The notes under the pieces: model-generated
The model's input: only the letters and a program-made list of their open reading frames with translations
The model's database searches: none
What the model was told of the DNA's origin: nothing
Translations under genes and position numbers: made by a program
Assembly: GCA_029858565.1 (NCBI GenBank)
Contig: JAOUEV010000072.1
Span: 1 to 15,573, forward strand
Direction: 5' to 3'
DNA from: Nitrospirota bacterium
Lineage (GTDB): Bacteria > Nitrospirota > UBA9217
Length of the DNA: 15,573 bases
Part shown: positions 658 through 15,465 of the stretch, piece after piece
How the letters are laid out: each line of letters starts with the position of its first letter
Numbering within the stretch: position 1 is the first letter of the stretch

Positions 658-710
658 CTGTACTCCTCTCTTGCGGCATGAACTGCATTCGATCGGAACG
701 CCAGTAAACT

Positions 711-1457
711 TCAGAACCTGACCTCGACGCCAAACACCGCGTAATGGAAAAGCGAGAAGGTGTATACCTCGTCGTTGTTGGCCCCGCCTTCGAGGACCTT
801 ATACCCAGCAAAGACTTTCGTCGATGCGCGAATGTCGCACAATAGTGCGAAAAGCACGTCTTCGGCCCTGCCCTGCGGCCCCACGAGAGCATCCCCGGCA
901 ACGCGGAGCGACCAGGGTTGCGCGAACCGCCAATCTACGAGGAAGTTGACCAGCGGCACGAATCCCGTATTGGTTTTCTCCGCCTGCTGTCCTCCTCCTT
1001 CGATCGTGATCTCCGCGTCCCGGATCTTGCCGGACACTCCCAGCCAAATATCGACCTTGTCCCCGGTCACTAGCTTTCGTCGCCATGTGATCCGGTAGGA
1101 ATCGAAGCGGAACGTAGCGTCGAGATCCGTACCTGCGGCGAAGGTCGCTCCCGCGTACCGGACATCTCTGCTGACCGGACCCTGGGAGTCCACGGTGAGC
1201 GGGGCAACGACGATGCCGAAATAGTCCAGCTCCTTGCGGATGTACCCGGCCTCCAGCCTGCCGGTGTACGCTGTTTCGGCTGCGAGGTCCTTGGAAAGCG
1301 AGAATTTCGTACCGTCGTCCCCGGGTATGCGAATATCGTTCTTCTGCGTAAAGACGGCGGCACCCTGGAAATTGAGGACATACTCCGCCCGGACTCGGGG
1401 AGCGATGATCAAAATATATAACAATGCGCCGGCGGTGACACGAAGAAGGTCTCGCAT
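711..1457 (-). CDS. Putative outer-membrane beta-barrel protein (248 aa)
   Basis: N-terminal signal-peptide-like segment (VTAGALLYILIIAPRVRA), alternating amphipathic beta-strand pattern, and C-terminal ...YAVFGVEVRF ending in Phe (BAM signal-like). Confidence 0.75.
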   Translation of the reverse strand: MRDLLRVTAGALLYILIIAPRVRAEYVLNFQGAAVFTQKNDIRIPGDDGTKFSLSKDLAAETAYTGRLEAGYIRKELDYFGIVVAPLTVDSQGPVSRDVRYAGATFAAGTDLDATFRFDSYRITWRRKLVTGDKVDIWLGVSGKIRDAEITIEGGGQQAEKTNTGFVPLVNFLVDWRFAQPWSLRVAGDALVGPQGRAEDVLFALLCDIRASTKVFAGYKVLEGGANNDEVYTFSLFHYAVFGVEVRF

Positions 1458-1924: not shown

Positions 1925-1957
1925 AAAAAGAAAAGGAACTGCGATAGCAGTTCCTTT
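1925..1957 (-). terminator. Intrinsic terminator downstream of the tRNA-Glu 3' end
   Basis: Perfect 11-bp stem AAAGGAACTGC-gata-GCAGTTCCTTT (1932-1957), followed on the minus strand by TCTTTTT, 8 nt after the CCA end. Confidence 0.75.
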
Positions 1958-1965
1958 GATTTGAT

Positions 1966-2009
1966 TGGCGTCCCCAGAGGGATTCGAACCCTCGTTATCG
2001 CCGTGAAAG
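1966..2009 (-). tRNA. Partial tRNA-Glu(TTC), 3' half only (44 nt); integrase att-site remnant
   Basis: Minus strand CTTTCACGGCGATAACGAGGGTTCGAATCCCTCTGGGGACGCCA matches the anticodon loop, variable loop, T-arm (GTTCGAATC), acceptor 3' strand and CCA of bacterial tRNA-Glu. The sequence 5' of the anticodon loop cannot form the anticodon stem, D-arm or acceptor 5' strand. Confidence 0.9.
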
Positions 2010-2047
2010 TTTTTAGCAGTGCTTTTGTTAAGTGGGCGACGCGCAAC

Positions 2048-2161
2048 GGTTTTGAGCTAACCTCTTGATAAACAAGCAAGTCGGCATTTCCGCTGATTCC
2101 GGATTTTCCGTCATTTCCGGCCCTGGAGGAAAATTCTACGACGATTCTACGACAGCGAATT
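2048..2161 (+). repeat. att-arm repeat, copy 1 (IHF site, four TTCCG units, ATTCTACGAC direct repeats with 11-bp period)
   Basis: ATTCTACGAC at 2133-2142 and 2144-2153; TTCCG four times at ~9-10-bp spacing within 2086-2119. Homologous to 10187-10220 and 12503-12644. Confidence 0.8.
2058..2070 (-). promoter_or_regulatory. IHF binding site consensus in the att arm
   Basis: Minus strand TATCAAGAGGTTA is an exact match to WATCAANNNNTTR, ~50 bp inside the att core. Confidence 0.6.
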
Positions 2162-2180
2162 CGGGAGGAGCACGTCTGCT

Positions 2181-3377
2181 TCATCGCCTGTCATTTGCGA
2201 AGAGCGCCTGGCGAATCTTCTTCACCGCGAAGCGGTGATTGATCTTTTCCTGTTCAAGACGGTTATGACTTCGCAGGTTGATCAGTCTTTCGAAAAGCGC
2301 ATGTTCTTCCGAAGTGAGGCGCGGCAAGTCCGCAAAGTCCGCATCTGCGCCGGTTACACGATAGTGTTTGAATGCTTCGAACGTTTCCTCGTCCATCATA
2401 AGCGATGTCGCATGAGGAAAATAGGACCGCAGCTGCGACAGCAGCAGGAATCCGTGGACATCTATGTCGCCCCAGTAAAAGATCCGCTTCTCGGTCAGCC
2501 AGGCGGCATTCTTGAGCAGGCCCAGCTGAAATCCCTTCCCGAAAACCGCGATGGACTTTTTTATCTCCGGTAGCGCAAGGAAGTTGTAGATGTTCGCAAA
2601 GTTCGTTTTATTTTCCAGAATAAGGACCGAATCGCACTCAGGAGAAAGGGACAGAAACGAGGACTGCGGGATGCTCATATCGCGGAGCCCGCTGAAGCAT
2701 TGCCGGCTCAGGACGCGGTCCAGCACCATCAGCCTGATCAGGGGTTCGTCGTACTTCAAATGGAAGCGCTTCTCGAATTCCGATTCTTCGCCGTTCACCT
2801 CGTCTGGGATGAGAACGTCGAGAAGCTGCCTCAGGATTGTTTTCTGTTCTTCGACAAACTTGGTAGGAAGCTCCAGCGGAAGTTCCCGAAAGTAAAGGTT
2901 CGGCCTCGGATTATCGACAAAGTACGCGCAGACAGAGAGCAACGCCGGCCACCTGCCCGCATGTTCGATGATCTTGAGCGGATTGGCAAGGACCCACTCG
3001 CGCAGTTGCGGAAAAGCAGCCAGGATTTTCTCGCTGTCGCGCCTAAAAACTGCGGCTTCTTTGTCTTTCCCGATGAACCGAAGATAATCCTCTTCGCCGG
3101 GGAAAAAGATTCGCTGTGGAAATCGTTGTTCCCCGGTTTTACGGTCTTTCCGCCGCACAAACTCGATCGAATATCCATATCCCAGCCGTTCGCGGGAGTT
3201 CACGGCCAGTTCCGAAATATCTCTCTTGATCCGCGAATAGCCGGCAAGAGTCTCTGCCGCTTTTATCTTCCCGAAACGAACGTCTTTGGGGAAAAACGCC
3301 CGGCCGGTGACGGTTGCTGCAAGAACGTCCTTATACCAGCGCTCCGCCTGTCTTCGTATCTCTTCCGGCGATATCAT
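2181..3377 (-). CDS. jetD: Wadjet nuclease JetD (DUF3322 + DUF2220 Toprim-like), ~398 aa
   Basis: Likely true start is MISPEEIRRQAERWY at 3377, forming an ATGA overlap with the jetC stop. Motifs ILENKTNF, YWGDIDVHGF and RLEQE are present. Last gene of the four-gene operon. Confidence 0.92.
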   Translation of the reverse strand: MISPEEIRRQAERWYKDVLAATVTGRAFFPKDVRFGKIKAAETLAGYSRIKRDISELAVNSRERLGYGYSIEFVRRKDRKTGEQRFPQRIFFPGEEDYLRFIGKDKEAAVFRRDSEKILAAFPQLREWVLANPLKIIEHAGRWPALLSVCAYFVDNPRPNLYFRELPLELPTKFVEEQKTILRQLLDVLIPDEVNGEESEFEKRFHLKYDEPLIRLMVLDRVLSRQCFSGLRDMSIPQSSFLSLSPECDSVLILENKTNFANIYNFLALPEIKKSIAVFGKGFQLGLLKNAAWLTEKRIFYWGDIDVHGFLLLSQLRSYFPHATSLMMDEETFEAFKHYRVTGADADFADLPRLTSEEHALFERLINLRSHNRLEQEKINHRFAVKKIRQALFANDRR

Positions 3378-6300
3378 TGCGCCGCTTCCGCCCTGCCCAG
3401 ATACCGCGCCTTTTCCTCGCGGTATTCCTGGATGGTCAGGTCGCGGACCACGGAATTGTTGCCGCCGTCGTTCGCCACGAAGTGGACGGCGTTGATGTAA
3501 TTCTCGATGATATTGATCTTCTGGAGCGGGGTCACGAGCAGGAGCTGGAGGTCGAGTTTTTTGAAGAGTTCCAGTGCGTAGCGCGTGCTGTCGTCGGAGC
3601 TCCTGCCGAAGGCCTCGTCCAGGGCAACGAACCGGAAGGAGCGGGACCGGGTCTGTTTCCATTCGAGCCCGAATTGGTAGGCAAGGGCCGAGGCCAGGAT
3701 CGTATAGGCGAGCTTCTCCTTCTGGCCCCCGGATTTTCCCGACGAGTCGCTGTAAAACTCCTTTTCCGCGTTGTCCTCGCTGTAGCGCTCGCTCGCTGAA
3801 AAAGCGAACCAGTTCCGCACGTCCGTGACGCGGCTGGTCCAGTTGAGTTCCGCCTGGGCAGCGCTTCCGAGCCGGTCCAGGATCAGTTTCACCCTGCCGA
3901 ACTTCTCTTCGTTGTACAACTCCGTGTCGCCGGCCATGTTTTCGAGGCAGTTACGGAGCTGGACTTGGAAATCCCGGACATCCGTGTCTGCGGTCTTGTC
4001 CGCGATCAGGATGATGAACGTGCCGGGGTTGTACTCGATCTCCCGCAGAGACCGGTTGATCTGTTTGATCTTGTCCTCGATGTCCTTTGCCGAGTTTTCG
4101 AGCTGGTTCTTGAAGATCGCGATGTCGTTGATCGTTCCCTCGTTCAGAAGCTCCTTGAAGCGCTTCTCGTGCTTCGGCAGGTCCTCGTCTTCGAGCTTTT
4201 TCAGGAATCCTTTGAACTCCGTGATCGCCTCGACAGCCGCGTCCGTCTCAACGGTCTCCTCCGGATAGGCGTTCTTGTACTTCTGCATCCGCGAAATGAT
4301 GGTATCGCGCAGTTTCTTCTCTTCCTCGGTCTTCCTGTTCCGCCGGTTCTCGAAACCCTTTCTCGTTTCCGTCTGGAGCCGGTCGATCGTGGAGAGGGAG
4401 AACTCTTTGTCCTGCACCTGCTCCGTAATTGCCGGAAAAAAGGAAGTTCGCTCCGCATCGGTGATCATTCCTGCGATCTGACCGCAAGCTCCGAGCTCTT
4501 CTTCGGCCCGCCGGGTTGACTCTTCGAGCTTTCCCAGTTTTTTCTCTTTTATTTCCCGCTCCGCGTCCTTCTGCCCGATCTCGCCCCTGAGCCCGGCAAG
4601 GCGGTTCTTCAGAGCCTGAAGCTGGTCCGAACTCTTTTCCAGCGCCTCTTTTTCTGAAAGCAGACGCTCTGTTTCAAGGGCGTCTTTTTTCCAGTTGATC
4701 TCGCTGTAATCCGTGATTTTCACCAGATCGCGCAGGTTTGCTTCCCGTTCTTTCAATTTCCTCTGCTGCTCCTCCACGGCCCGGATTTCCTGCTCAACCT
4801 TTTCCGCGGCTCTGCCCAGCCCGACGAGCTCTTTTTCAATGGCTTTGATCTTTTCCCTGTTGCTCCAGCCGAGAATATAGGACTTCCTGTCCAGGATGCT
4901 CCTGCGGTCGTCTTTTTCGTGGCGCGCTTTCCCGCCTTTGATCTGGCCGCTTTTCGTGAGCGCCCGGGGTTCGCGCTGGAACTGCTCGATGGTCTCGCAG
5001 CATTCATAATTGAAGCTTTCCCGGAGTTCGTGTTCAAGCCAGTCGAAGAAGGGCGTGCCGGACTTGATCTCTACCTTGTTGGCGAGCGAAGCAGCAGAAA
5101 CCTGCCGCGCCTCCTCATATTTCCCCGTGGCGGGAACTTTAAAATAGACGATCCTGCCTTTGAGGTTCGTCCGGTCCACGTACACGCTCACGCGTTTGTA
5201 GTGCTCCTCGGGTACGAACACGGAAAGGCCGAAGTTGTGCAACACCCGCTCGACGGCGCCCTCCCAGGCGCTTTCTTCGTCCTTCACCTTGAGCAGTTCC
5301 CCGCTGAAGGGAAGCTCCTGCTCCGGAATTTCCAGGTCCCTGGCCAGGGTTTCCCGTATTTTGAGATTTGCTTCGGGAATCTGCGTTTTTCTGCGCCGCA
5401 GGGACTCAAGCTCACGCTCGTTCGCTGACACGGTTTCGCCGAGCCCGCTCAGGTTTATTTTGAGTCCGTCGCGGTGTTCGATCAATTCCGAAGACTCGGC
5501 AGCCGCGGCCTCGCGCAGCTCGCCGGCCTGCTTGAGCGACTGATAGAATGCCTCTTCCTTCGGCGCCGCAGGAAGCCCAAGAGCGGTTGCAAGCCGGTCA
5601 TATTCATCAGCCTTGGCCTGTTTTCCGGTCCGCGTGACTTCGAGATTTCTGATCTCCCGTTCGAGCTCTTCGATACGACGGCCCTCGGCATTGTTTCTGA
5701 TTGCCGCGCTCACGTCCTCAGCCTGGTCCCGGAGCCCATCAAGCTCGCGCTTCACTTCTTTAAGCCTGTTCTCGGCTATGGCCGTCTGCTCGCTGAACTC
5801 TCTGATCGCCCTTTGGAGAAGCTCGGCTTTCCGGGACGCAAAAAACGACGGCAAGGCCTCAAGAGAACCCTGTAAGCTTCTCACCTCGGCGCTCGCGGCC
5901 TCGAAATTCTCAGCATCCCGGGCCAGGGGCTGGAGTTCCTCCACCTGTTTTTTCGCCTTCCGCACCGCCTCGTGGGACCGCGTGAGATTTTCATAGTTAC
6001 GTTTCAGCTCTTCGATCTTCTCTTTCACGTCGCTCTTCTCGATCATATGGTTCCGCACGAACTCCGTGAGGTTTCCCACGGACTTGATCGAAACCGTCTG
6101 GTAGAACAGTTCGAGCGCCTTTTCGGAGCGGATTCCGAAGAGGTTGCGGAAGGATGTGCAGTAATCGGTGAAATTCTCGAACACCTGCGTACGGTCCAGC
6201 CCCTTGAGCCGCTTCTTGAGCTGCAGGATGTCTTTGCCGAATTTCGTGAAGTGTTCGGCGATCGAAAGTTCCAGGCCGGAAACGACGAAGAACTTCTCCG

Positions 6301-6736
6301 GTTTGTCGCTCCTGAGCCAGAACACCTGGGCCAGGACGGTCTTCTGGTTGTAGCCCTCGTTCAGGAATGAGGCGAGCAGGACCGTGTATTCGCCATCGTC
6401 GCGCAGGCACGCAGCCTGCGCCCGGTTATCATATTCGCTCTTGATGTTCTTGTATTCGCCAAGAACATAGGACTTGATGGTCCGCTCGCGCGCTTCCACG
6501 CCCGCAGCCCGGTTGTAAACGATCTTTTGATGGGGAACGAGGAGGGTGGTGACCGCGTCCACGAGCGTGGACTTGCCCGAACCGATGTCGCCGGTCAAAA
6601 GGGAGTTCGCGCCCCCGGGCTCGATCTTCCAGATCGCCCGGTTGCCGAAGGTGCCCCAGTTCAGGACTTCCAGCCGCTCGAGACGGAAACCCGTGCGGCT
6701 GTTGTCCGCGGAGAATTCAAGAGAGAGATTGTGCAT
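3374..6736 (-). CDS. jetC: Wadjet SMC-family ATPase JetC (1120 aa)
   Basis: N-terminal LEVLNWGTF, Walker A GDIGSGKST, long coiled coils around a hinge region, signature KSGGQKEKL, Walker B FVALDEAF. Confidence 0.95.
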   Translation of the reverse strand: MHNLSLEFSADNSRTGFRLERLEVLNWGTFGNRAIWKIEPGGANSLLTGDIGSGKSTLVDAVTTLLVPHQKIVYNRAAGVEARERTIKSYVLGEYKNIKSEYDNRAQAACLRDDGEYTVLLASFLNEGYNQKTVLAQVFWLRSDKPEKFFVVSGLELSIAEHFTKFGKDILQLKKRLKGLDRTQVFENFTDYCTSFRNLFGIRSEKALELFYQTVSIKSVGNLTEFVRNHMIEKSDVKEKIEELKRNYENLTRSHEAVRKAKKQVEELQPLARDAENFEAASAEVRSLQGSLEALPSFFASRKAELLQRAIREFSEQTAIAENRLKEVKRELDGLRDQAEDVSAAIRNNAEGRRIEELEREIRNLEVTRTGKQAKADEYDRLATALGLPAAPKEEAFYQSLKQAGELREAAAAESSELIEHRDGLKINLSGLGETVSANERELESLRRRKTQIPEANLKIRETLARDLEIPEQELPFSGELLKVKDEESAWEGAVERVLHNFGLSVFVPEEHYKRVSVYVDRTNLKGRIVYFKVPATGKYEEARQVSAASLANKVEIKSGTPFFDWLEHELRESFNYECCETIEQFQREPRALTKSGQIKGGKARHEKDDRRSILDRKSYILGWSNREKIKAIEKELVGLGRAAEKVEQEIRAVEEQQRKLKEREANLRDLVKITDYSEINWKKDALETERLLSEKEALEKSSDQLQALKNRLAGLRGEIGQKDAEREIKEKKLGKLEESTRRAEEELGACGQIAGMITDAERTSFFPAITEQVQDKEFSLSTIDRLQTETRKGFENRRNRKTEEEKKLRDTIISRMQKYKNAYPEETVETDAAVEAITEFKGFLKKLEDEDLPKHEKRFKELLNEGTINDIAIFKNQLENSAKDIEDKIKQINRSLREIEYNPGTFIILIADKTADTDVRDFQVQLRNCLENMAGDTELYNEEKFGRVKLILDRLGSAAQAELNWTSRVTDVRNWFAFSASERYSEDNAEKEFYSDSSGKSGGQKEKLAYTILASALAYQFGLEWKQTRSRSFRFVALDEAFGRSSDDSTRYALELFKKLDLQLLLVTPLQKINIIENYINAVHFVANDGGNNSVVRDLTIQEYREEKARYLGRAEAAQ

Positions 6737-7301
6737 GCGTTTCCAGTCTCCGCTTGATGTCTTGCAGCATGTCGGCGGTGATCTTGGCCTTTAAGATCCG
6801 CTTCACTTCGTATTTGTCTTCTCCGGAAGCAAGCTTCCGGAGAAACCCGTATTCCACGAGCTTGTTGATCGGCGCATCGAGGCTGTCCATGATCTTCGCC
6901 TCGTTCGTCTTGTCGGACAGGAAGATCCGGACCAGCTCCTTGATCTCATCCCTGCCCAGGATGAGCCGCGTTGAATCCCCGCCCCGCACGTCGAACTCGA
7001 TCAGCTTTTCCACGAGCAGTACGCAGAGGAGCGTGACCGTGTATCCCAACTGCCGCTTTTCGATGAGCCGGGGAAGGGCGAATTCACCGTCTTCCTCCGC
7101 TTCCCGCTGCTTCAGAAACGCGAAACCTTCGGATTCGTGGATCAGCACGTCAACGCCGATCAGAGCAAAGTATTCCCTCACCTGGGCCTGGTGATCGATC
7201 AGGGCGTTCCAGATCTCCCGGTTGTCGTCGTAGACCACGCCCTGGAGCAGCCGGATGATCACCGCCGCGTAAGGCGGTATGTTGGATTGGTCCGTCGTCA
7301 T
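6717..7301 (-). CDS. jetB: Wadjet KITE subunit JetB (DUF4194), 194 aa
   Basis: LLQGVVY...W...VREYFALIG...EGFAFLKQ...LPRLI...TLLCVLL pattern; size and position between jetA and jetC with overlapping ends. Confidence 0.9.
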   Translation of the reverse strand: MTTDQSNIPPYAAVIIRLLQGVVYDDNREIWNALIDHQAQVREYFALIGVDVLIHESEGFAFLKQREAEEDGEFALPRLIEKRQLGYTVTLLCVLLVEKLIEFDVRGGDSTRLILGRDEIKELVRIFLSDKTNEAKIMDSLDAPINKLVEYGFLRKLASGEDKYEVKRILKAKITADMLQDIKRRLETHAQSLS

Positions 7302-8734
7302 CTGCAGAATATCACCTGCGGCACGCTCACTTCGAAGAGCTTGTCCGTCTCTTTGTTCGATACCAGAACGTTTTCCATCGCCTCTTCGTTGATCACCGCG
7401 CTCCGGTCCTTTGAAGCGATATTGAGGAGCGCGATCAACTCGGCAAGCCCTTTTTCGATCGGATAGGCCTCGGTCATCTGCCTGAGCGTCACCTGGGGCC
7501 GCGCTTTAAGCAGTTCCCGGATCCTGGCCCGCAACTCCTCGAGGTCGATATGGAGCTGCTTGTACAAAAGTTCAGTATCGATCCCGTCGGCAATGCCGAT
7601 GGAAAAATCCGCGTCGTTGAGCTCCGGGTTCTTCGGCACATCCCAGAGGGGCCGCTCCATGACCAGTTCGACCAGCGGCTTATCGTCGATGGCGAAAAAG
7701 TCCCGGTTCGCAGGCGGCCTGTCTTTTACCTGCACGGCCAGGGCCTTGATCTCGTTGATGATTTCGATGATACGCTTATTCTCGAGATAGGCCTTATCGT
7801 CCAGGTATTTCCTGAGTTGCTCGACCAGACGGTGGGTCGTCTTGTTCACCTTATCCCCGGACTCGATAAGCCCGACCTTGAGCCGGTCGAGGAATTCGTC
7901 GTGATCCATGTCGCTGATCTCGGGAAGCGCGAGCACTGCTCCGATCAGCTCGTCCAGCTCGTCTTGCTTTGCCTGGGACATGAGAAATTCCCAGAAAGCG
8001 CGAAAGCTCCGGCCCTGATCCGTGTCCCGTATCAAGTCCCGGTTCTTGAAGACATCGTCGAGGAGCCTCCCCTTCCGGAGAGTAGCGTCGATCTGCTTTT
8101 CCCGCACAGTGCGGTCGAGTTCGCGGAAATTGTACTCGATCTGGCGGAAATCGGACAACAGCTTCCGAGCAGAATCCTGGACTTCGAAAAAGCGCTCTTT
8201 CACCTGCGTTTCGTTCAGACGCTCGATGATACCTGCTTCGATCTTCTCGATTTCGGCCTCGATTTCACGTTTCTGCCGTGCCAGTTCTTCCAGCCGCCGC
8301 GCCGGGTCCGCCGAACTCCGGTATATAATCTCTTTCAGGAGGTCGAACAGCTTGAGAAGCCGCGATTCCGTGCCCACGAACTCTTTCTTCTCAAGATCCC
8401 GAATCCAGTCCAGTGCCTTCTCCATCGCCGGCGTAAGCTCGAACAAGGCCTCGTCGCTCTCAGGCGGATAGAATTTCCGGAGGAATCCGTCGTTTGTCCA
8501 GGCGGCAAGATAATCCTGGGCCGTTCCGGGATAGACCGCATCGCCCCCCTGCTCCCGTAGCGCGTGCAGGTAATCGGCGAGCTCCGTCGTAAGCTCCCCC
8601 GCCGCCGCGGTCATGCGGTTGTTCTTTTTGAACCGGCGAAAGAGGAAGCTGATGATCAGGGGCGCGTTGTCGAGCTTGAGCACCCGTACGGTGGGATTAT
8701 GTTCCTTGATATAGCGTATATAGTCGTGATCCAT
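7298..8734 (-). CDS. jetA: Wadjet kleisin JetA (DUF3375), 478 aa
   Basis: HNPTVRVLKLDNAPLIISFL, ELTPAMEKALDW, FVGTESRL, DQGRSFRAFWEFLMS and YPIEKGLAEL are typical of DUF3375. First gene of jetABCD. Confidence 0.92.
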   Translation of the reverse strand: MDHDYIRYIKEHNPTVRVLKLDNAPLIISFLFRRFKKNNRMTAAAGELTTELADYLHALREQGGDAVYPGTAQDYLAAWTNDGFLRKFYPPESDEALFELTPAMEKALDWIRDLEKKEFVGTESRLLKLFDLLKEIIYRSSADPARRLEELARQKREIEAEIEKIEAGIIERLNETQVKERFFEVQDSARKLLSDFRQIEYNFRELDRTVREKQIDATLRKGRLLDDVFKNRDLIRDTDQGRSFRAFWEFLMSQAKQDELDELIGAVLALPEISDMDHDEFLDRLKVGLIESGDKVNKTTHRLVEQLRKYLDDKAYLENKRIIEIINEIKALAVQVKDRPPANRDFFAIDDKPLVELVMERPLWDVPKNPELNDADFSIGIADGIDTELLYKQLHIDLEELRARIRELLKARPQVTLRQMTEAYPIEKGLAELIALLNIASKDRSAVINEEAMENVLVSNKETDKLFEVSVPQVIFCR

Positions 8735-8788
8735 GTTTTTTCTGCGTTGAGCGCTGCCGTTCCAAGCAGAGCAAGTTCGCCTTCTTTT

Positions 8789-10021
8789 CTACAGATATTT
8801 CCACGGCAGGGCCGTGATCGTGTCCGTCAGTTTTTCCGGCATCCTTCCGGTTGTGATCACGTAGGCCTTCTTCACTTTTCCTTTATAGGTTTCCAGAAAG
8901 CTCGACAAACCCCGAAGAGAGGTCAACGTTACTTTGGAACCTGCCTTGATCTCGATCGGGATGATCGTCGCCCCCGTATCGATCACGCAATCCACTTCCG
9001 CGCCGCCGCCGGTCCTCCAATAATGGACCTTGTAGTCCAGATTCTGCGTCCGTATCCGCCGAATCAGCTCAAGGATAACAGCGTGTTCAAAGAGCCTGCC
9101 TTTATCCACATTCAACAGGTCCTCGGTCAAGGGGACCCGGGCAAGGGCATTTCTCACACCGAGGTCGAAAAAATAGTAGCGTGGCGAAGTAAGTATCCGC
9201 TTCCGGGCGTTTTTAAGATAAGGCTCGACCTTCTCAACGACGAGCGTATCTTCCAGAATGTTGAAGTATTCCTTGATGGTAGGAACGCTGACGCCTGATT
9301 CCAGCGACAACTTGGTTAGGTTGGGGTTGGTACCGGACTCCTGTGCGGCCAGTTCCAGGAAACGGCTGAACGGACCGATTTTCCTGCTGAGCGCTTCAGC
9401 CCGAATTTCTTCTTCCAGGTACGTTTGCGTATACGATTTAAGCAAGCCGACACGCTCCTTGTCGTCCGGCTGATTGACAATGCCGGGGAGCGATCCGTAA
9501 ATGAGAGAATGTTCAAAAGAATACCCCTTGATCGCATTGATATTCGGCATACGGAACAATCCCGCGTCGTGGTCCGTCTGCCAGCCGAATTCGTTCCACT
9601 GCAGGGGATCAAGCCTGAATGTCCTGATACGTCCGGGGAGCAGGTTCACGCCCTTCCTCCGAAGTTTTCGGGCGGAGGATCCCGTGATGATGAAAGACGC
9701 TTTATTTTCATCGATCAGATACTGGGCACTGTCAAACAGTTCCGGGACTTTCTGCGCTTCATCGACAAATACCACGGGTTTTCCTGCTTGCGCTTCAACC
9801 TGTCTGATAAGGACTCCCGCGTCACGTTCCATCTCCATGCGAATACCTGGGTCCTGCAAAGGATACTCCATTAATTTCTTTACTTCGGTCAGACATGCTT
9901 TTGCAAGAAAAGTCTTGCCTGTCTGCCGCGGCCCCAAGATGAGGGCTGACTGTCCTTTTCTAAGGATCTGGCCGAGGACATGCTCCATGTTGCGCATATA
10001 TTCTTTATATTTACCTTGCAT
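8789..10021 (-). CDS. AAA+ ATPase with C-terminal DUF4143 (restriction-endonuclease-like fold), 410 aa
   Basis: Walker A GPRQTGKT, Walker B VFVDEAQK, ITGSS, L.GR, YGSLP, YFFDLGVRNAL, GRLFE, and YWRT..GAEVD...IPIEIK (D..E.K motif). Confidence 0.9.
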   Translation of the reverse strand: MQGKYKEYMRNMEHVLGQILRKGQSALILGPRQTGKTFLAKACLTEVKKLMEYPLQDPGIRMEMERDAGVLIRQVEAQAGKPVVFVDEAQKVPELFDSAQYLIDENKASFIITGSSARKLRRKGVNLLPGRIRTFRLDPLQWNEFGWQTDHDAGLFRMPNINAIKGYSFEHSLIYGSLPGIVNQPDDKERVGLLKSYTQTYLEEEIRAEALSRKIGPFSRFLELAAQESGTNPNLTKLSLESGVSVPTIKEYFNILEDTLVVEKVEPYLKNARKRILTSPRYYFFDLGVRNALARVPLTEDLLNVDKGRLFEHAVILELIRRIRTQNLDYKVHYWRTGGGAEVDCVIDTGATIIPIEIKAGSKVTLTSLRGLSSFLETYKGKVKKAYVITTGRMPEKLTDTITALPWKYL

Positions 10022-10027
10022 ATTTAA

Positions 10028-10055
10028 AGTATATATAGATATTTAAAATAAGCAA
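10028..10055 (-). promoter_or_regulatory. Sigma70-like promoter of the AAA-DUF4143 gene, probably leaderless
   Basis: Minus strand TTGCTT-N16-TATACT, then 6 nt to the ATG at 10021. It is embedded in an imperfect inverted repeat CTTGCATATTTAAA...TTTAAAATAAGCAAG. Confidence 0.5.
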
Positions 10056-10186
10056 GAACTATTTCGTCCCTGGCTTCCGTGATCAAGAGCAATGGAGACA
10101 CAAAACGAGCGTCACATGACAGGGAGTTATGGAGAGGAGCGGTGATGTGCCGACTTTATGAAAACAACGATAGATGCCGGAACGAA

Positions 10187-10220
10187 GCAAAAACTACGAC
10201 AATTCTACGACAGCAAATTG
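10187..10220 (+). repeat. att-arm repeat, copy 2 (direct-repeat core only)
   Basis: GCAAAAACTACGACAATTCTACGACAGCAAATTG versus copy 1 GGAAAATTCTACGACGATTCTACGACAGCGAATTC. Confidence 0.75.
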
Positions 10221-10318
10221 CCGACATGTCGGTACCTGAAACACAAGAATCATGATAAAGAACAGATGGTCGATTTTGCTGGGCCGGGATGAGGCAACCT
10301 GCATGCCACAGCCTTCAA

Positions 10319-10624
10319 TCAAGCAACTTTTGAATATTCCTTGACCTCTTTTTTTAGGCGGGCTCCAAGGGCATCGGCAGCAATATCGAGGTCATACTGC
10401 GACTGAAGACCAAGCCAGAACTCTGAAGACATCCCGAAGAACCTCCCAAGCCGGAGGGCGGTATCAGCGGATATTTTTCTTTTCTCCAGGACAATCTCGT
10501 TGATACGCCGTGCCGGGACTCCGATGTTCACCGCGAGTTTATTTTGGCTCAAACCCAAGGGAATAAGGAATTCCTCAAGAAGAACCTCGCCAGGATGCAC
10601 AGGATGTAGTGCTTTTTTCTTCAT
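10319..10624 (-). CDS. higA: HigA family antitoxin (HTH), ~101 aa
   Basis: PVHPGEVLLEEFLIPLGLSQNKLA...RRINEI...ISADTALRLGRFFGMSSEFWLGLQSQYDL. Start placed at 10624 from GAGAGG RBS spacing; 10630 is also possible. Confidence 0.93.
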   Translation of the reverse strand: MKKKALHPVHPGEVLLEEFLIPLGLSQNKLAVNIGVPARRINEIVLEKRKISADTALRLGRFFGMSSEFWLGLQSQYDLDIAADALGARLKKEVKEYSKVA

Positions 10625-10637
10625 GCTCATCAACCTC

Positions 10638-10919
10638 TCAATGATAATCTGTGATTTCAACGTCTATCGCGTCTCCGTCTTTCCATGCAAAGCAAACGCG
10701 CCATTGGTCATTTATACGGATGCTGTATTGACCTGTTCTGTTGCCGAAAAGCTTTTCCAGCCTGTTCGCCGGGGGGATGCGAAGATCATGGAGGCTCTTC
10801 GCATTATTTATCATTCGCAGCTTTCGCAACGCAACCTGCTGGATATCGGACGGCAGCTTCCGCGAATGCTCACGGAGATATATTTTTTGTGTTTCTGCAT
10901 CGCTAAACGTCTTAATCAC
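10638..10919 (-). CDS. higB: HigB (RelE-like) toxin, 93 aa
   Basis: MIKTFSDAETQKIY...LRKLRMI...DLRIPPANRLEKL.GNR.GQYSIRINDQWRVCF.W...VEITDYH; toxin-first gene order. Confidence 0.93.
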   Translation of the reverse strand: MIKTFSDAETQKIYLREHSRKLPSDIQQVALRKLRMINNAKSLHDLRIPPANRLEKLFGNRTGQYSIRINDQWRVCFAWKDGDAIDVEITDYH

Positions 10920-10925
10920 AGTGGC

Positions 10926-10954
10926 ATAATATAACGCGTTGCGTTAAACGTCAA
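10926..10954 (-). promoter_or_regulatory. higBA promoter with palindromic operator; probably leaderless
   Basis: Minus strand TTGACG-N17-TATTAT, then 6 nt to the GTG start. Palindrome TAACGC-N3-GCGTTA (10932-10946) lies in the spacer. Confidence 0.7.
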
Positions 10955-11031
10955 GTCTTTTCAACGCTATCGCAAATTGCGGAAGACGTGATCGTCGCAA
11001 GCAAGCAGCTTTTGCCTCAAATCCATTTCGA

Positions 11032-11074
11032 TTGACAATCTGCCAGTTGTCTGTTAATATTATGCCAGATGACA
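11032..11074 (+). promoter_or_regulatory. xre-res promoter with repeated operator-like sites
   Basis: TTGACA(11032)-N17-TAATAT(11055); repeats TGCCAGTTGTC (11041) and TGCCAGATGAC (11063); AGGAGG RBS before the ATG at 11088. Confidence 0.65.
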
Positions 11075-11087
11075 GGAGGCAGCTTCA

Positions 11088-11528
11088 ATGTTTACCGAAC
11101 AGAGTATCGTATCAGTCCTCGGCGGCCAGACCTCTCTTGGCCGCAAGATCAAAAGCACCCTTGACCTGGACAAGCTCATCCGCGAAGGGTTCCCCTATAA
11201 GGCAGGCAACCACGTCCGGGGCCTGCTGAACCTTCCCCTCCCCGTTTTCGCCGGCATTATCGAGGTAAGCGAACGGACCCTGGCCCGGGTCCGCAACTCT
11301 CCGGGTCAGCGCCTGTCGGCCGTCGCCAGCGACCGGCTTTACCGGCTGGCGAGGATCTTCTCGATCGCCTGCGAGGTCCTGGAGGACGAGGACAAAGCCA
11401 GGGAATGGCTGCGTCGGCATCAGGTGGGCTTGGGCGGCAAAGCGCCCCTTGACCTGCTGCATACCGAGGCGGGATCAAAGGAGGTCGAAAATCTTCTCTG
11501 GCGCATTGAGTACGGGGTCATTTCGTGA
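11088..11528 (+). CDS. Xre/MbcA/ParS-family antitoxin (DUF2384), 146 aa
   Basis: HTH VSERTLAR, SDRLYRLARI, AREWL...LGGKAPLDLL.TEAG..EVE..L.RIEYGV. Confidence 0.92.
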   Translation: MFTEQSIVSVLGGQTSLGRKIKSTLDLDKLIREGFPYKAGNHVRGLLNLPLPVFAGIIEVSERTLARVRNSPGQRLSAVASDRLYRLARIFSIACEVLEDEDKAREWLRRHQVGLGGKAPLDLLHTEAGSKEVENLLWRIEYGVIS

Positions 11529-11995
11529 TCACTGCATGGCGCCTTGATAAGGCAAAACGCGCCAAGGAAGCATTTACCGGCGAAGGGGCCCGCCGCGTAA
11601 GCGGCCGATGGCACCATCAGGGCATACCAATGATCTACGCAAGCGAGTCTCTGGCGCTGTCCGTGGTCGAAAAGTTCGTTCACCTGGGGTTCGATGCTTC
11701 TCATATCAAGTTCGTGTACTTCAAAATCGAGATTCCGGACAGCGTCCTTGTTGAAAAGCTGAAAAGCGCCGATCTCCCCGATGACTGGACCGCGGAACCG
11801 CCGCAGGATTCAACAAAGGATATCGGTTCCGCCTGGGCGAATAAATCGGACACAGCGGTTTTTCGGGTCCCTTCCGTGCTGGTCCCCAAAAGCTGGAACT
11901 ACCTGCTCAATCCCGGCCACCGCGACTTTAAGAAGATCCGCATCAGCGACCCCATGCCTTTTGTCTTTGATGCGAGGATGTGGAAGGAAAAATGA
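11525..11995 (+). CDS. RES-domain toxin (MbcT/ParT-like), 156 aa
   Basis: WRL, FTGEGAR..SGRWH..G.PMIYASESLALSVVE, LPDDW, RVPSVLVP..WNYLLNP.H.DF, FVFDARM. GTGA overlap with the antitoxin stop. Confidence 0.92.
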   Translation: MITAWRLDKAKRAKEAFTGEGARRVSGRWHHQGIPMIYASESLALSVVEKFVHLGFDASHIKFVYFKIEIPDSVLVEKLKSADLPDDWTAEPPQDSTKDIGSAWANKSDTAVFRVPSVLVPKSWNYLLNPGHRDFKKIRISDPMPFVFDARMWKEK

Positions 11996-12459
11996 TAAAA
12001 TCCCTAAAACTGACGATTGTGATTCTTCTCATGATCGCGCTGCACGCCGTTTCTGCTCCTGCGGGTGACTTCGACATCAAATTCGGACTGATGAAAAAGG
12101 ACGCGGCGGGAAAATACTACGTCTGTTCCGAGACCACCACGATCCCCCTGACCTACAAAGACATGGATCCCGACTTTCGGTTCGGATACTCCATAAAGAC
12201 TGCATCCGATCGGCCCTTTACCACATACATGATCATGCAGGCCCCGTCTGCCTTTGAGAAGTATACCGGCGAATTCAAGGATGCCGACAAGAAAGAAGGC
12301 GGCAAAGCGATTCAATCGACCGTCAAAAAGGCCGTCGCTGCGTTCACCTACTCTCTTCGTTTCGATCGTGGCGATCCTCCGGGACAGTATAAGATCGACA
12401 TCTGGATCAATGACAAGCCTGCAAGGACGATCGATTTCACGGTCATCGAGGCGAAATGA
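11992..12459 (+). CDS. Secreted/periplasmic hypothetical protein, probable beta-sandwich (Ig-like), ~155 aa
   Basis: Start ATG at 11992 overlaps the RES stop (ATGA). Signal peptide MIKSLKLTIVILLMIALHAVSAPA; C-terminal PPGQYKIDIWINDKPARTIDFTV strand pattern. Confidence 0.7.
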   Translation: MIKSLKLTIVILLMIALHAVSAPAGDFDIKFGLMKKDAAGKYYVCSETTTIPLTYKDMDPDFRFGYSIKTASDRPFTTYMIMQAPSAFEKYTGEFKDADKKEGGKAIQSTVKKAVAAFTYSLRFDRGDPPGQYKIDIWINDKPARTIDFTVIEAK

Positions 12460-12502
12460 GCTTTCACTTTATCGATTACTCGGAAGTATGAAGTATATTT
12501 CA

Positions 12503-12644
12503 GGCTTCGAGCTAAACCTCTAGACAAACCACCAAGTCGGTGTTTCCGCTGATTCGGCCTTGGCGCAAAATTCTACTACGATTGACGCTCCCCGCAGCAA
12601 GCTACGGGGAATGCGCTCGCTGCTGGATTCAACGACGGCAAATT
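12503..12644 (+). repeat. att-arm repeat, copy 3 (diverged, interrupted by a 46-nt insertion)
   Basis: GGCTTCGAGCTAAACCTCTAGACAAACCACCAAGTCGGTGTTTCCGCTGATTC aligns with 2048-2099 GGTTTTGAGCTAACCTCTTGATAAACAAGCAAGTCGGCATTTCCGCTGATTC. GGCCTTGGCGCAAAATTCTACTACGATT[insert]CAACGACGGCAAATT aligns with 2119-2161. Confidence 0.8.
12584..12629. mobile_element. Miniature hairpin insertion (REP/IS200-IS605-end-like)
   Basis: 46 nt absent from copies 1 and 2, with GATT on both sides (12580-12583 and 12626-12629). Contains the imperfect palindrome TCCCCGCAGC-AA-GCTACGGGGA. Confidence 0.6.
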
Positions 12645-12669: not shown

Positions 12670-13428
12670 TCAATCCAGCAATTCCCCTTCCGGATCATCC
12701 GATATGGCCAGATAAATCGCCGCGGCCGTGAAGTCCGCCAGTGCTCCTGCAGGCATTTTTGATGCCCTGCGCATCCGGCTGAAGCCTTTGCAGATCCTTT
12801 CCTTGAGCGGCAGCCCCGGCAGTCTCAGATGCTCGTACATGAGCGTCGTGAGCGGCAGTCCGTTCGCAAGTTCGTTGACGAACAGCCTCGACGACTCGTG
12901 GCAGCGCTTCGCGTGCATCTGATAATGCTCCAGGACATTCTCACCGTCGACCGTGATCCTGAACTTTCGCTTGAACTCCTTGTCGCTCCGGGAATAGATC
13001 TCCTTGCGCATCTGTGCCAGGTAGCGCACATCCTCGCGGGATGTCTGCTGCAGCACATCTTGGATACGTCTCAGGATATCGTACCCGGTCCCGGGGTAAA
13101 GACACCTGGCAGCAACTACCGGGAACATTGCTTCCAGAAGGCCGTAGTTCACGATCTTGCCTGTTCTCCCCTGCTGGCTGGTCATCAATGCCTTATAAGC
13201 CAGGTCATAGATCAAGGGAGGCTGGCGTCCCAGGATGCCGATCCTTTCCGCAAGGTCGTGGAACCACCTCCCGCTGTTTATGGCTGACAGCAGGAAATAC
13301 TCGAACCGCTGCTTCGGACCCACATCACGAAACCGGGAGGTGCAGGCAGGTTTGGGCATCGTCACTTCAATCGCGAATGCCGTCACCACCTGGCGCTGCA
13401 CCTCAAGGGGATCGATCTTTACGCGCAT
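12670..13428 (-). CDS. Divergent CitG-like (triphosphoribosyl-dephospho-CoA synthase family) protein, ~252 aa
   Basis: Likely start MRVKIDP at 13428, overlapping the radical SAM stop by 10 nt. AFAIEVTMPKPA, FEYFLLSA, VNYGLL...FP and PAGALADFTAAAIYL resemble the CitG-family A..E...PKPG, F..SA, N.G...P and PG..AD..A..F motifs. Confidence 0.6.
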   Translation of the reverse strand: MRVKIDPLEVQRQVVTAFAIEVTMPKPACTSRFRDVGPKQRFEYFLLSAINSGRWFHDLAERIGILGRQPPLIYDLAYKALMTSQQGRTGKIVNYGLLEAMFPVVAARCLYPGTGYDILRRIQDVLQQTSREDVRYLAQMRKEIYSRSDKEFKRKFRITVDGENVLEHYQMHAKRCHESSRLFVNELANGLPLTTLMYEHLRLPGLPLKERICKGFSRMRRASKMPAGALADFTAAAIYLAISDDPEGELLD

Positions 13429-14693: not shown

Positions 14694-14745
14694 GACAATC
14701 CGCTCCTTTCAGCGGCAGTTGTATTCGGCTTTCCGAATTCCGTAT

Positions 14746-15465
14746 TTACGCAAACGCCGCCATATGCACCACCTGGTCTCCGTCCAGTGCAGCGAAACCA
14801 GCCGAGGTCTTGCCTTCAAGCCGCAGGTTCACGCCCTTGCCCGTTGCCGGGTATGCCGCAGCCTTCAGTTTCTTGATGCCCGAGAGAAAGAGCGAGGCCT
14901 TGCGCCGCGGATCGCCAGCGGGCTTCTTCGCTTTCTTGTCATAGGACTGCTCGATGGCGTCCAGGATGTAGGAGCGAAGCCCCTTTGCAAAGGTGCGTTT
15001 GAGCACACCGGGATTCCCGAAAATATCGCAGCCTGCCACTTTCCCGTTGATCAGCACGATGAACCCGACCTGGTCCTTGGCAGCAGGGAAGGCCTTTTCA
15101 TAGTCCCTGGTCCGCTCTTCAAAGGATCCATACATGTCGTCCGCTGCCCTGGTGGGGCCAAAGCTGAACTTGGGATCGGCAGTGCAGAACTTCACGGATT
15201 TCTCCTCAATATCGTCCCAAACCTTTCCCTGATCTGCGGCAAAGGATTTCTTTTCCTTCAAGCTGAAGTTCACGGACTTTGCCTTGATGCTGCGGAGCTT
15301 GGCATAGACCGGTCGTTCGCTGGCGCCAAAGGCTTGGCTTTTGTAGGACCACCGCCCTTGCTCAACACAGTTAACATCAACCACCATTTCAGAGTGTTTA
15401 GCTATGATGATCGTCGTGGTCACCGAGCGGTTCTGCTTCGCGCCGATCAGAATATCCCCGTCTAG
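14746..15465 (-). pseudogene. ARPP-1/DUF6569-family gene, 5'-truncated by an IS insertion
   Basis: The frame extends past the ORF-track GTG to LDGDILIGAKQNRSVTTTIII...VDVNCVEQGRW, followed by QGKVWDDI, QVGFIVLING..GCDIFGN and LRSYILDAI. An in-frame TAG at 15487-15489 with no start codon shows the N-terminus is missing at this position. Confidence 0.75.

What the first reader, a model, noticed from the sequence alone, without database searches (positions are those of the whole stretch)
2048..12644. Three same-orientation copies of an integrase arm-type sequence divide the island into cassette-like modules
Seen: the motif AAA(T/A)(T)CTACGAC(G/A)ATTCTACGAC(A/G)GC(G/A)AATT occurs at ~2130-2161, 10187-10220 and 12567-12644 (interrupted), and copies 1 and 3 share ~100 bp more broadly. 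Each copy lies just downstream of the last gene of a minus-strand module: jetD (~20 bp), higA (~100 bp) and the CitG-like gene (~25 bp). Only copy 1 adjoins the tRNA fragment. Established: tyrosine integrases bind ~10-bp direct-repeat arm sites near IHF sites. Inference: the island grew by repeated integrase-mediated addition of cargo modules, either as tandem related elements that later decayed or as an integron-like array of defence cassettes at tRNA-Glu.
Basis: partly seen in the sequence, partly recalled or inferred. Interest (0 to 1): 0.75.

Follow-up and report, generated by a model that had tools for sequence, protein, structure and literature searches.

The report
Stacked decayed mobile islands at tRNA-Glu
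The repeated motif marks the ends of integrase-less mobile elements carrying phage-defence and toxin-antitoxin genes that piled up next to a tRNA-Glu gene, which is a known way for bacterial genomic islands to grow.

Summary
CTACGACNATTCTACGAC occurs exactly at 2136-2153 and 10194-10211. A third copy at 12571-12636 is split by a ~50-bp dispersed repeat. A fourth copy lies on contig C85, about 50 bp from the intact tRNA-Glu.

The window is a whole contig. A 53-bp repeat of the tRNA-Glu 3' end (1957-2009 = C85:296-348) brackets a roughly 15-kb island.

In related Nitrospirota genomes the same motif sits at fixed distances on both sides of tRNA 3'-end repeats. It also lies inside the last codons of full-length tyrosine-integrase genes next to tRNA-Glu, -Arg, -Leu and -SeC, in two different reading frames. 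Only the integrases' N-terminal, arm-binding-like domain co-varies with the motif type. One complete 20-kb element carries both arms, integrase, excisionase-like protein and relaxase, so it is an integrative mobilizable element (IME).

Copies 1 and 3 are left arms. Copy 2 and the C85 copy are right arms, and the C85 copy sits in what reads as the stump of an integrase gene. No cognate integrase was found in this genome.

Best reading: a tandem accretion of decayed IMEs (CIME-like) carrying Wadjet, toxin-antitoxin pairs and unknown cargo. It is not an integron. This is a new member of a known kind, of moderate interest.

The parts
1..1457 (-). Chromosomal flank: N-terminal part of a P-type cation ATPase (1-657) and an unknown 248-aa ORF (711-1457).
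   Evidence: Pfam E1-E2_ATPase and Cation_ATPase_N. A 226-nt contig of another metagenome (run X2) covers 1815-2009 and runs on into 14 letters that fit the tRNA 5' part. This is a weak hint of an unoccupied site in a relative.
1932..1957 (-). Terminator-like hairpin just downstream of the tRNA fragment. Probably the original chromosomal terminator of the tRNA-Lys/tRNA-Glu operon, displaced by integration.
   Evidence: 11-pair stem followed by a T run on the minus strand.
1957..2009 (-). Distal 53-bp direct repeat (att core): 44 nt of the tRNA-Glu 3' part (1966-2009) plus 9 nt downstream of the tRNA.
   Evidence: 100% identical to C85:296-348. The intact tRNA-Glu(ttc) is at C85:305-382. No tRNA is called in the window.
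2010..2161 (+). Left arm 1, containing copy 1. It holds a conserved box (2030-2061), three to four TTTCCG-type repeats (2086-2119) and two TTCTACGAC repeats (2134-2153).
   Evidence: The same order of features follows tRNA core fragments in G047, G023, G037 and G012 and in the tRNA-Arg element L091.
2181..10021 (-). Cargo of element 1: Wadjet jetD (2181 to about 3377), jetC (3374-6736), jetB (6717-7301), jetA (7298-8734) and an AAA_14/DUF4143 ATPase (8789-10021).
   Evidence: Pfam and PADLOC. PADLOC gives JetD1 at E 7e-144 and PDC-S01 at E 2.9e-68. The jetD start is inferred from where the family hits begin.
10130..10220 (+). Copy 2, a right-arm-type site (motif 10194-10211) with no tRNA core after it. 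Its 3' flank AGCAAATT resembles the left-arm copies, so it may be a right/left hybrid.
   Evidence: The 5' flank aligns to right arms of G023 (58 of 71) and to the internal right arm of G047 (65 of 74). Sequence.
10319..12459 (.). Toxin-antitoxin segment, possibly the remnant of a middle element. It holds higA (10319-10660, -), higB (10638-10919, -), Xre-type antitoxin (11088-11528, +), RES toxin (11525-11995, +) and an unknown 159-aa ORF (11980-12459, +).
   Evidence: Pfam. HigBA homologues (49-58% identity) lie beside a tRNA-Glu core plus left arm in L080.
12503..12644 (+). Left arm 2, containing copy 3. It is partial: the core and the first ~40 bp of the arm are missing, and two TTTCCG-type repeats are deleted.
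   Evidence: 68 of 80 identical to 2048-2146. Sequence.
12581..12631 (+). Dispersed repeat of about 50 bp inserted into copy 3.
   Evidence: Further copies on C31 and C62 (short form) and on C18 and C121 (about 120-bp form). Extra contig depth at 12481-13000.
12670..15465 (.). Cargo of the last element: CitG-like protein (12670-13572, -), unknown 424-aa ORF (13419-14693, -) and unknown 257-aa ORF (14692-15465, +).
   Evidence: Pfam CitG at E 8e-8 for the first only. No PADLOC or NCBIfam hits. The Atlas search gave only unnamed clusters.
15462..15573 (+). First 112 bp of a 1571-bp IS (DDE_Tnp_1/DUF772 transposase) at the contig end.
   Evidence: 112 of 112 identical to the full copy at C14:61813-63383. 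C85:1-109 matches the other IS end at 108 of 109.

Best explanation
The motif is the arm-type binding site of one clade of tRNA-targeting tyrosine integrases found in Nitrospirota. These integrases belong to integrative mobilizable elements (IMEs).

Such an element integrates into the 3' end of a tRNA gene. This leaves a repeat of the tRNA end at the far side. Next to that repeat sits a left arm: a conserved box, then TTCYGT-type repeats, then two or three CTACGAC repeats. A right arm sits next to the restored tRNA, and its CTACGAC repeats lie inside the last codons of the integrase gene.

The island here runs from C35:2010 to 15461, through an IS, to C85:~113-295, about 15.2 kb in all. It is a stack of such elements that have lost their integrase, excisionase and relaxase modules and kept their cargo ends.
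- Element 1 runs from copy 1 to copy 2 and carries Wadjet plus an ATPase.
- A toxin-antitoxin remnant follows.
- The last element runs from copy 3 to the C85 copy and carries the CitG-like gene and two unknown genes. The stump of its integrase gene remains.

Shown: the repeats, the bracketing tRNA repeat, the positional conservation in relatives, the integrase linkage and the co-variation. Inferred: integrase binding, the stepwise order of integration, the deletions, and the C35-IS-C85 join.
For: Island boundaries.
- The 53-bp tRNA-Glu repeat brackets the island.
- The fourth motif copy lies at C85:238-255, 50 bp from the tRNA.

Motif position in relatives.
- The motif occurs in 8 of 63 other genomes of the family.
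- In the fetched loci, 13 of 15 motif hits lie within about 200 bp of a tRNA-Glu 3' end or fragment. They come in two stereotyped flavours, left and right.

Linkage to integrases.
- Five full-length integrases carry the motif in their 3' end. They sit next to tRNA-Glu (L072, L090), tRNA-Arg (L071), tRNA-Leu (L093) and tRNA-SeC (L068).
- The motif is read as TTTILRQ in some integrases and NYDNSTT in others, so the constraint acts on the DNA.
- Other integrase subtypes carry other repeats in the same place (TTAGCACA, TTATCACA, TTTGGAAC). G047 element A has its own variant at both ends.

Co-variation with the N-terminal domain.
- N-terminal residues 1-55 are 67.5% identical within motif groups (24 pairs) and 38.0% between groups (112 pairs).
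- The catalytic region gives 45.9% against 42.8%.

Fold of the N-terminal domain.
- The model is three strands plus a helix.
- Its best matches among 48,161 chains are lambda integrase (Z 4.8), an AP2 domain (Z 4.7) and the HPI integrase arm-binding domain (Z 4.4, rmsd 1.7 A over 47 residues).

A complete reference element (L091/L071).
- It has a 48-bp tRNA-Arg repeat, a left arm with the motif, 20.1 kb of DNA, then integrase, HTH_17 protein, relaxase and NikA/MobC-like protein, next to tRNA-Arg.

Cargo differs between the same arms.
- G047: Fic, Wadjet and AbiE. G023: AEP-TOTE helicase plus a PIN toxin-antitoxin pair, in 3.7 kb with no integrase.

Framing. The CIME and accretion model comes from passages of PMC5704250.
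Against: - No cognate integrase was found in this genome. The best tblastn identity is 26%.
- Only the outer pair of tRNA repeats exists. Copy 2 has no core after it and copy 3 has none before it, so the internal elements need at least two further deletions or a motif-to-motif recombination.
- The toxin-antitoxin segment has no arms of its own.
- The C35-IS-C85 join is inferred. A second IS copy (C109/C107) leaves an alternative pairing. Only the pattern of IS sequence variants favours C35 with C85.
- The integrase stump at C85 is recognisable over only about 22 codons, and tblastn gives E 6.1.
- The structural Z scores are below 5 and Foldseek found no match at E <= 0.001.
- At up to 2 mismatches the genome-wide count does not exceed the reversed-pattern control.
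- Binding was never tested.
Confidence: 0.75

Rival explanations
1. The arm-bounded, integrase-less modules are still mobile. They are cis- or trans-mobilizable cassettes that an incoming IME's integrase of the same arm specificity can excise and reintegrate. The tRNA-Glu site would then work as an exchange platform for defence genes.
For: - Integrase-less loci keep the motif next to tRNA-Glu or its core fragment in many genomes: G000, G004, G023, G029, G047, G036, G037, G033, L074, L086 and L088.
- G023 holds a 3.7-kb integrase-less element with both arms and both cores.
- In G000, G023 and G047 the distal core copy carries that genome's own tRNA variant.
- G047 and G036 have an integrase-bearing element in tandem with integrase-less ones.
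Against: - No excision product was seen. Only contigs, not raw reads, could be laid.
- No helper integrase is present in this genome.
- Arms are damaged: copy 3 is split by an insert and internal cores are missing.
- The tandem integrases in G047 and G036 are of other arm types.
- Retention of the right-arm motif may simply reflect its closeness to an essential tRNA, or shared ancestry of the long right-arm form.
Confidence: 0.2
2. The composite was not built here. It arrived in one event as an already composite element, or the internal motif copies arose by rearrangement within one large element.
For: - Only one outer pair of tRNA repeats exists, and it is 100% identical over 53 bp.
- G047 shows a similar layout: left arm, Wadjet, internal right arm, small module, right arm, tRNA.
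- The review passage in PMC5704250 states that transfer of whole composites cannot be excluded.
Against: - Wadjet proteins of G000 and G047 are only 32-48% identical, so the two composites are not one transferred unit.
- Copy 3 is a second left arm, which a single element would not carry.
Confidence: 0.2
3. The repeats are iterons of a replication origin, or operator sites of a regulator, rather than integrase arm sites.
For: - The repeats are short and direct with an 11-bp period.
- Some related elements carry a primase-helicase gene right next to the left arm (G023, G029).
Against: - The motif is tied to the integrase gene whatever the cargo or the target tRNA.
- It occurs at both element ends.
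- It co-varies with the integrase N-terminal domain.
- This island has no replication gene.
Confidence: 0.05
4. An integron-like array: one resident recombinase captures single cassettes at one site, each with its own recombination hairpin.
For: The boundary sequences are repeated in the same orientation, and the cargo is defence-type.
Against: - There is no integrase on C35 or at the start of C85.
- The boundaries are lambda-type arms beside tRNA core repeats.
- The modules are operons of up to five genes or toxin-antitoxin pairs.
- The two arm flavours are the two ends of elements, not one attC type.
Confidence: 0.03

Closest known systems
CIMEs and site-specific tandem accretion (ICESt1/ICESt3-type islands of Streptococcus thermophilus; described in the IME review PMC5704250, of which I read passages)
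   Same: An element integrates at the 3' end of a gene and loses its integration and transfer genes while keeping att sequences. Further elements then integrate next to it, giving a tandem island.
   Different: - This case is in Nitrospirota, at tRNA-Glu, with defence and toxin-antitoxin cargo.
- The internal junctions have lost their core repeats.
- No functional partner element is present in this genome.
- Mobilization is untested.
Tycheposons of Prochlorococcus (bioRxiv 10.1101/2020.12.28.424599, of which I read passages)
   Same: tRNA-linked islands are built by successive integrations that push older elements inward. They contain partial tRNA copies and fragmented integrases.
   Different: No test of relationship between the integrases was made. 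The cargo here is defence genes. The elements here have relaxases in their complete form.
Heterobivalent tyrosine integrases with arm-type sites (lambda Int, HPI integrase, P4-like integrases; PDB 1z1b, 3jtz, 3rmp as listed)
   Same: - A catalytic PF00589 domain plus a small N-terminal domain of three strands and a helix.
- Direct-repeat arm sites on both sides of the core.
- Integration into tRNA 3' ends.
   Different: - The right-arm repeats lie inside the integrase's own last codons, in either of two frames.
- On the opposite strand, the end of the integrase gene forms the terminator hairpin behind the tRNA.
- Sequence similarity of the N-terminal domain to solved structures was not detectable.
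Integrons
   Same: Same-orientation boundary sequences separate cargo modules at one chromosomal site.
   Different: No resident IntI or attI is present. Boundaries are element ends with tRNA repeats. The modules are multi-gene and self-expressed. An attC-like structure was not specifically searched for.

Membership tests
Lambda-type (arm-dependent) tyrosine-integrase att sites | A direct repeat of the core (target) sequence brackets the integrated element. | tested here: met
   53 bp are 100% identical between C35:1957-2009 and C85:296-348, within tRNA-Glu. This holds for the whole island only. The internal elements lack cores.
Lambda-type (arm-dependent) tyrosine-integrase att sites | Arm-type direct repeats lie inside both ends of the element, at set distances from the core. 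| tested here: met
   Copy 1 lies 127 bp inside the distal core. The C85 copy lies 50 bp from the tRNA. The same layout is seen in G023, G037, G047 and G012, and in the tRNA-Arg element L091/L071.
Lambda-type (arm-dependent) tyrosine-integrase att sites | A cognate integrase has a catalytic domain plus an N-terminal arm-binding domain. | tested here: met
   This was tested in relatives only.
- PF00589 is present in L040, L090 and L071.
- The N-terminal model is strand-strand-strand-helix, with pLDDT 82-85 over residues 1-40.
- The top three of 48,161 chains are lambda Int, an AP2 domain and the HPI arm-binding domain, but Z is only 4.4-4.8.
- The N-terminal domain co-varies with the motif type.
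- No Pfam arm-domain hit was found for the CTACGAC clade.
Lambda-type (arm-dependent) tyrosine-integrase att sites | The integrase binds the arm repeats. | not testable with these tools
   This needs EMSA or footprinting.
CIME (cis-mobilizable element) | The integration and transfer genes are lost. | tested here: met
   No PF00589 hit lies on C35, at the start of C85, or on C107 or C109. No relaxase or excisionase domain was found among the window's ORFs. Only about 22 codons of an integrase 3' end remain at C85.
CIME (cis-mobilizable element) | attL and attR are retained. | tested here: inconclusive
   The outer pair (core plus arm at each end) is present. Internal boundaries keep arm motifs but no cores, and copy 3 is split by an insert.
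CIME (cis-mobilizable element) | The element is mobilized in cis by a neighbouring functional element. | not testable with these tools
   No functional neighbour exists in this genome. Only contigs were available for laying.
IME (integrative mobilizable element) | The element has its own integrase, excisionase and relaxase/oriT module. | tested here: not met
   The module is absent from this island. It is present in the complete relative L071/L091, which has integrase, HTH_17 protein, MobA/VirD2-like relaxase and NikA/MobC-like protein.
Integron | A resident IntI-type integrase lies next to the array. | tested here: not met
   The 10 PF00589 hits in the genome all lie on other contigs.
Integron | There is an attC recombination site at each cassette boundary. 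| not tested
   No attC model was run. The boundaries are explained as left and right arms.

The most novel reading that the evidence does not exclude
In Nitrospirota, defence modules without an integrase persist as arm-bounded cassettes at tRNA-Glu because they are still moved by integrases of passing IMEs with the same arm specificity. This would be a tRNA-anchored, arm-addressed cassette exchange system for immunity genes. In it the arm code (CTACGAC, TTAGCACA, TTATCACA, TTTGGAAC and others) decides which integrase can move which cassette, independently of the target tRNA.
Probability: 0.2. Interest if true: 0.7.

Novelty: new member of a known kind. Interest (0 to 1): 0.45.

Why it matters
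This finding explains how a defence island (Wadjet, an ATPase, two toxin-antitoxin pairs and an unknown three-gene block) was assembled in an uncultured Nitrospirota genome.

It also defines a family of tRNA-targeting mobilizable elements whose ends can now be recognised by sequence. That gives exact boundaries for mining variable cargo, including the unknown genes, as candidate defence systems.

The match between arm motif and integrase N-terminal domain, across several target tRNAs, is a clean natural data set on how arm specificity and core specificity evolve separately.

Tried and rejected
- Reads. Only one run holds the junction, and it may be the source sample. It is kept as contigs, so circles or empty sites in this population cannot be seen. 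The listed joint from 10213 to 1957 is simply the C85 sequence (motif, 38 letters, core), not an excision product.
- Synteny in the same genus. The ATPase flank is only 66-67% identical in G039 and G040, and no tRNA lies near it in loci L057-L059. No empty-site comparison was possible there.
- G054 (L063). No distal core or left arm was found within 15.4 kb left of the motif-bearing integrase, so that element's far end was not seen.
- Pairing of contigs across the IS. Open frames on either side of the C109 and C107 junctions did not settle it. The IS target duplication is CTAG at every copy and says nothing.
- Unknown cargo. No PADLOC or NCBIfam hits. The Atlas gave unnamed clusters only.
- N-terminal domain. 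The profile search against solved structures gave only unrelated hits at E >= 0.044. Foldseek gave nothing at E <= 0.001.
- G+C profile. The flank is 0.62 and the island 0.46-0.58. This is not decisive.
- Literature. A search for Nitrospirota, integrase, genomic island and tRNA returned one unrelated paper. I found no description of this element family in searches.
- A sigma-54-promoter reading of the conserved left-arm box was considered by eye and dropped because the spacing does not fit.
Full report
**Observation**

The 18-mer CTACGACNATTCTACGAC occurs exactly at 2136-2153 and 10194-10211. Shuffles of the window gave a mean of 0.01 matches, and 0 of 200 reached two.

The third copy is real but broken. 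TTCTACTAC (12571-12579) and TTCAACGAC (12628-12636) are separated by a ~50-bp insert at 12581-12631. That insert is a dispersed repeat with further copies on C31, C62, C18 and C121.

Copies 1 and 3 share more than the motif. 2048-2146 aligns to 12503-12583 at 68 of 80 identical positions, with a 19-bp deletion in copy 3.

Genome-wide, with up to 2 mismatches, the pattern has three matches: these two and C85:238-255. The reversed-pattern control gave five at that threshold. The count alone therefore proves nothing. The point is that the three hits carry 0, 0 and 1 mismatches and all sit at one island.

**Context**

The window is the whole of contig C35.

Its last 112 bp are identical (112 of 112) to one end of a 1571-bp IS whose full copy is on C14. 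The first ~109 bp of C85 match the other end (108 of 109), in a consistent orientation. The transposase carries DDE_Tnp_1 and DUF772 domains.

A second unresolved IS copy joins C109 and C107. Those two ends carry more variants against the C14 copy: 9 of 345 and 5 of 288 positions. The more diverged ends therefore pair with each other and C35 pairs with C85. This is an inference from parsimony. Neither C107 nor C109 carries an integrase.

Just beyond the IS on C85 lie, in order:
- about 183 bp that contain the fourth motif copy;
- a terminator-like hairpin;
- the intact tRNA-Glu(ttc) at 305-382;
- tRNA-Lys.

C85:296-348 is 100% identical to C35:1957-2009. This 53-bp repeat of the tRNA 3' end brackets an island of about 15.2 kb. 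The sequence at 1-1956 is the chromosomal flank.

A short contig from another metagenome covers 1815-2009 with 14 differences. It continues with 14 letters that fit the tRNA 5' part. This is a weak hint of an unoccupied site in a relative.

**Two kinds of arm**

In the bacterial family of this genome, 8 of 63 other genomes carry the motif with at most one mismatch. In the loci I fetched, 13 of 15 motif hits lie within about 200 bp of a tRNA-Glu 3' end or of a fragment of it.

The hits fall into two stereotyped forms.
- **Left arm.** It follows a core fragment. It holds a conserved box (AAGTGGGCGA, five bases, GGCAACGGTTTTGAGCTAAC), then three or four TTCYGT-type repeats at a period of about 10 bp, then AATTCTACGAC repeated two or three times.
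- **Right arm.** It precedes the tRNA and reads GAAGCAAAAACTACGACAATTCTACGACAGT.

By these criteria copies 1 and 3 are left arms.

Copy 2 has a right-arm 5' flank. It matches G023 at 58 of 71 positions and the internal right arm of G047 at 65 of 74. The C85 copy is also a right arm.

**The cognate integrase**

A family of integrases common in these genomes (16 of 64 at E <= 1e-30) abuts tRNA genes. Each carries an 11-bp-period direct repeat inside its last ~25 codons. The repeat differs between subtypes: TTAGCACA, TTATCACA, TTTGGAAC and CTACGAC.

A scan of one genome per species (185,579 species) for the motif gave 29 loci. 27 of the record titles name Nitrospirota-lineage taxa, one is unclassified and one is Dinghuibacter. 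By my own arithmetic about nine hits would be expected by chance. The signal is therefore the taxonomic and positional concentration, not the number.

Five of these loci hold full-length integrases with the motif in their 3' end:
- L072 and L090, next to tRNA-Glu;
- L071, next to tRNA-Arg;
- L093, next to tRNA-Leu;
- L068, next to tRNA-SeC.

The motif is translated as TTTILRQ in some of these and as NYDNSTT in others. It also recurs in non-coding left arms. The constraint therefore acts on the DNA.

Among 17 integrases, residues 1-55 are 67.5% identical within motif groups and 38.0% between groups. The catalytic region shows no such split, at 45.9% against 42.8%. Related sequences share labels, so this is not an independent-sample statistic. 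Still, the CTACGAC group spans four target tRNAs.

The N-terminal domain is modelled as three strands and a helix. Its three best matches among 48,161 chains are lambda integrase, an AP2 domain and the arm-binding domain of HPI integrase. The Z scores are low, at 4.4-4.8.

**A complete element**

On one contig, L091 and L071 show a full element in this order:
- a 48-bp, 100% identical repeat of the tRNA-Arg 3' end;
- a left arm with the box, the short repeats and the motif;
- 20.1 kb of DNA;
- an integrase with the motif in its 3' end, next to the intact tRNA-Arg.

Of the 20.1 kb, I annotated only the roughly 16 kb that lie in the two fetched loci. That part carries an HTH_17 excisionase-like protein, a MobA/VirD2-like relaxase and a NikA/MobC-like protein. 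At the left end it carries a PIN toxin-antitoxin pair and a PLD-SNF2 helicase.

This is an integrative mobilizable element with its cargo at the left end.

**Reading of this island**

1. Element 1 runs from the core and left arm (1957-2161), through Wadjet and the ATPase, to the right-arm motif at 10194.
2. A 2.1-kb toxin-antitoxin segment follows, without a core.
3. Next comes a partial left arm (12503-12644), then the CitG-like gene and two unknown genes.
4. The IS follows.
5. On C85 the right arm reads QLRKSTTILRQSKEKELRLLP-stop. This is the stump of an integrase gene, comparable to the ends of the G047 and G054 integrases.

The 3' flank of copy 2 (AGCAAATT) resembles copies 1 and 3 rather than right arms. 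Copy 2 may therefore be a hybrid formed by recombination between the two direct motif copies of a junction of the form right arm, core, left arm. Such junctions are intact in G037. This rests on about 8 bases and is only a suggestion.

Toxin-antitoxin pairs directly after a left arm are seen elsewhere (G047 element A). HigBA homologues lie next to a core and left arm in L080.

No cognate integrase was found in this assembly. The best tblastn identity is 26%, and the 10 PF00589 hits lie on other contigs. The assembly is 100% complete by marker genes but is in 144 contigs.

**The site is a hot spot**

At least ten of the 64 genomes hold two or three tRNA-Glu core copies on one contig, 3.7 to 48 kb apart. 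The cargo differs between genomes:
- G047: Fic, Wadjet and AbiE;
- G023 and G029: AEP-TOTE helicase plus a PIN toxin-antitoxin pair.

In G000, G023 and G047 the distal copy carries that genome's own tRNA variant. In G042 and G056 the two copies differ, which fits arrival from another lineage.

**Comparison with what is known**

The pattern is the one described for CIMEs and site-specific accretion (passages of PMC5704250). It also matches the tRNA islands built by tycheposons (passages of bioRxiv 10.1101/2020.12.28.424599).

PMC3146451, on Dehalococcoides islands at ssrA, I saw only as a search listing and abstract.

The island is not an integron. It has no resident integrase, the boundary sequences are the two ends of elements, and the modules are operons.

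**Limits**

- Integrase binding, the order of events and any present mobility are untested.
- The internal boundaries need extra deletions to explain.
- The contig join is inferred.
- The structural match is weak.

Noticed in passing
window 12581-12631; also G000 C31:~1056-1105, C62:~32273-32321, C18:~22330-22447, C121:~5708-5826: A small dispersed repeat with a hairpin core. It has a ~50-bp form and a ~120-bp form, and at least five copies in the genome. One copy splits arm copy 3.
   Followed up: partly
L096 (C85) 269-294, minus strand; L030-L044 integrase 3' ends: The last codons of these integrase genes (KEKEL...P-stop) form, on the opposite strand, a terminator-like hairpin and T run directly behind the tRNA. 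The element would thus bring a new terminator for the tRNA operon. The displaced chromosomal hairpin remains at window 1932-1957.
   Followed up: partly
window 2030-2061; L091, L080, L081, L073 left arms: A conserved box, (A)AGTGGGC, about 5 bases, GGCAACGGTTT(T/C)(G/C)AGC, lies about 20-50 bp inside the core in left arms. It occurs in elements that target tRNA-Glu and tRNA-Arg alike. Its function is unknown; it could bind an excisionase or a host factor.
   Followed up: no
L023:13619-13789, L025:3868-4037, L022:6462-6631, L019:17650-17827, L029: Many integrase-less right arms carry a degenerate second copy of the tRNA 3' half between the motif and the true tRNA end. This looks like a fossil of an older junction carried along with the arm.
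   Followed up: no
window 12670-15465: A three-gene block (CitG-like protein, 424-aa ORF, 257-aa ORF) sits in a defence-cargo position. It has no PADLOC or NCBIfam match and is a candidate for an undescribed defence system.
   Followed up: partly
window 8789-10021: An AAA_14/DUF4143 ATPase matching the PADLOC candidate system PDC-S01 (E 2.9e-68) sits directly upstream of jetA, inside the same arm-bounded element.
   Followed up: no
G000 C109:~30870-31129 (L095): The C-terminal ~85 codons of a group II intron reverse transcriptase/maturase abut a truncated end of another copy of the IS. This is a rearranged junction.
   Followed up: no
L023:10312-12708 and L025:448-2943: Arm-bounded, integrase-less elements in G023 (3.7 kb; the left end of the G029 locus lies beyond the stretch examined) consist only of an AEP-TOTE primase-helicase and a PIN toxin-antitoxin pair. 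They are possibly minimal satellites or remnants of the same element family.
   Followed up: no
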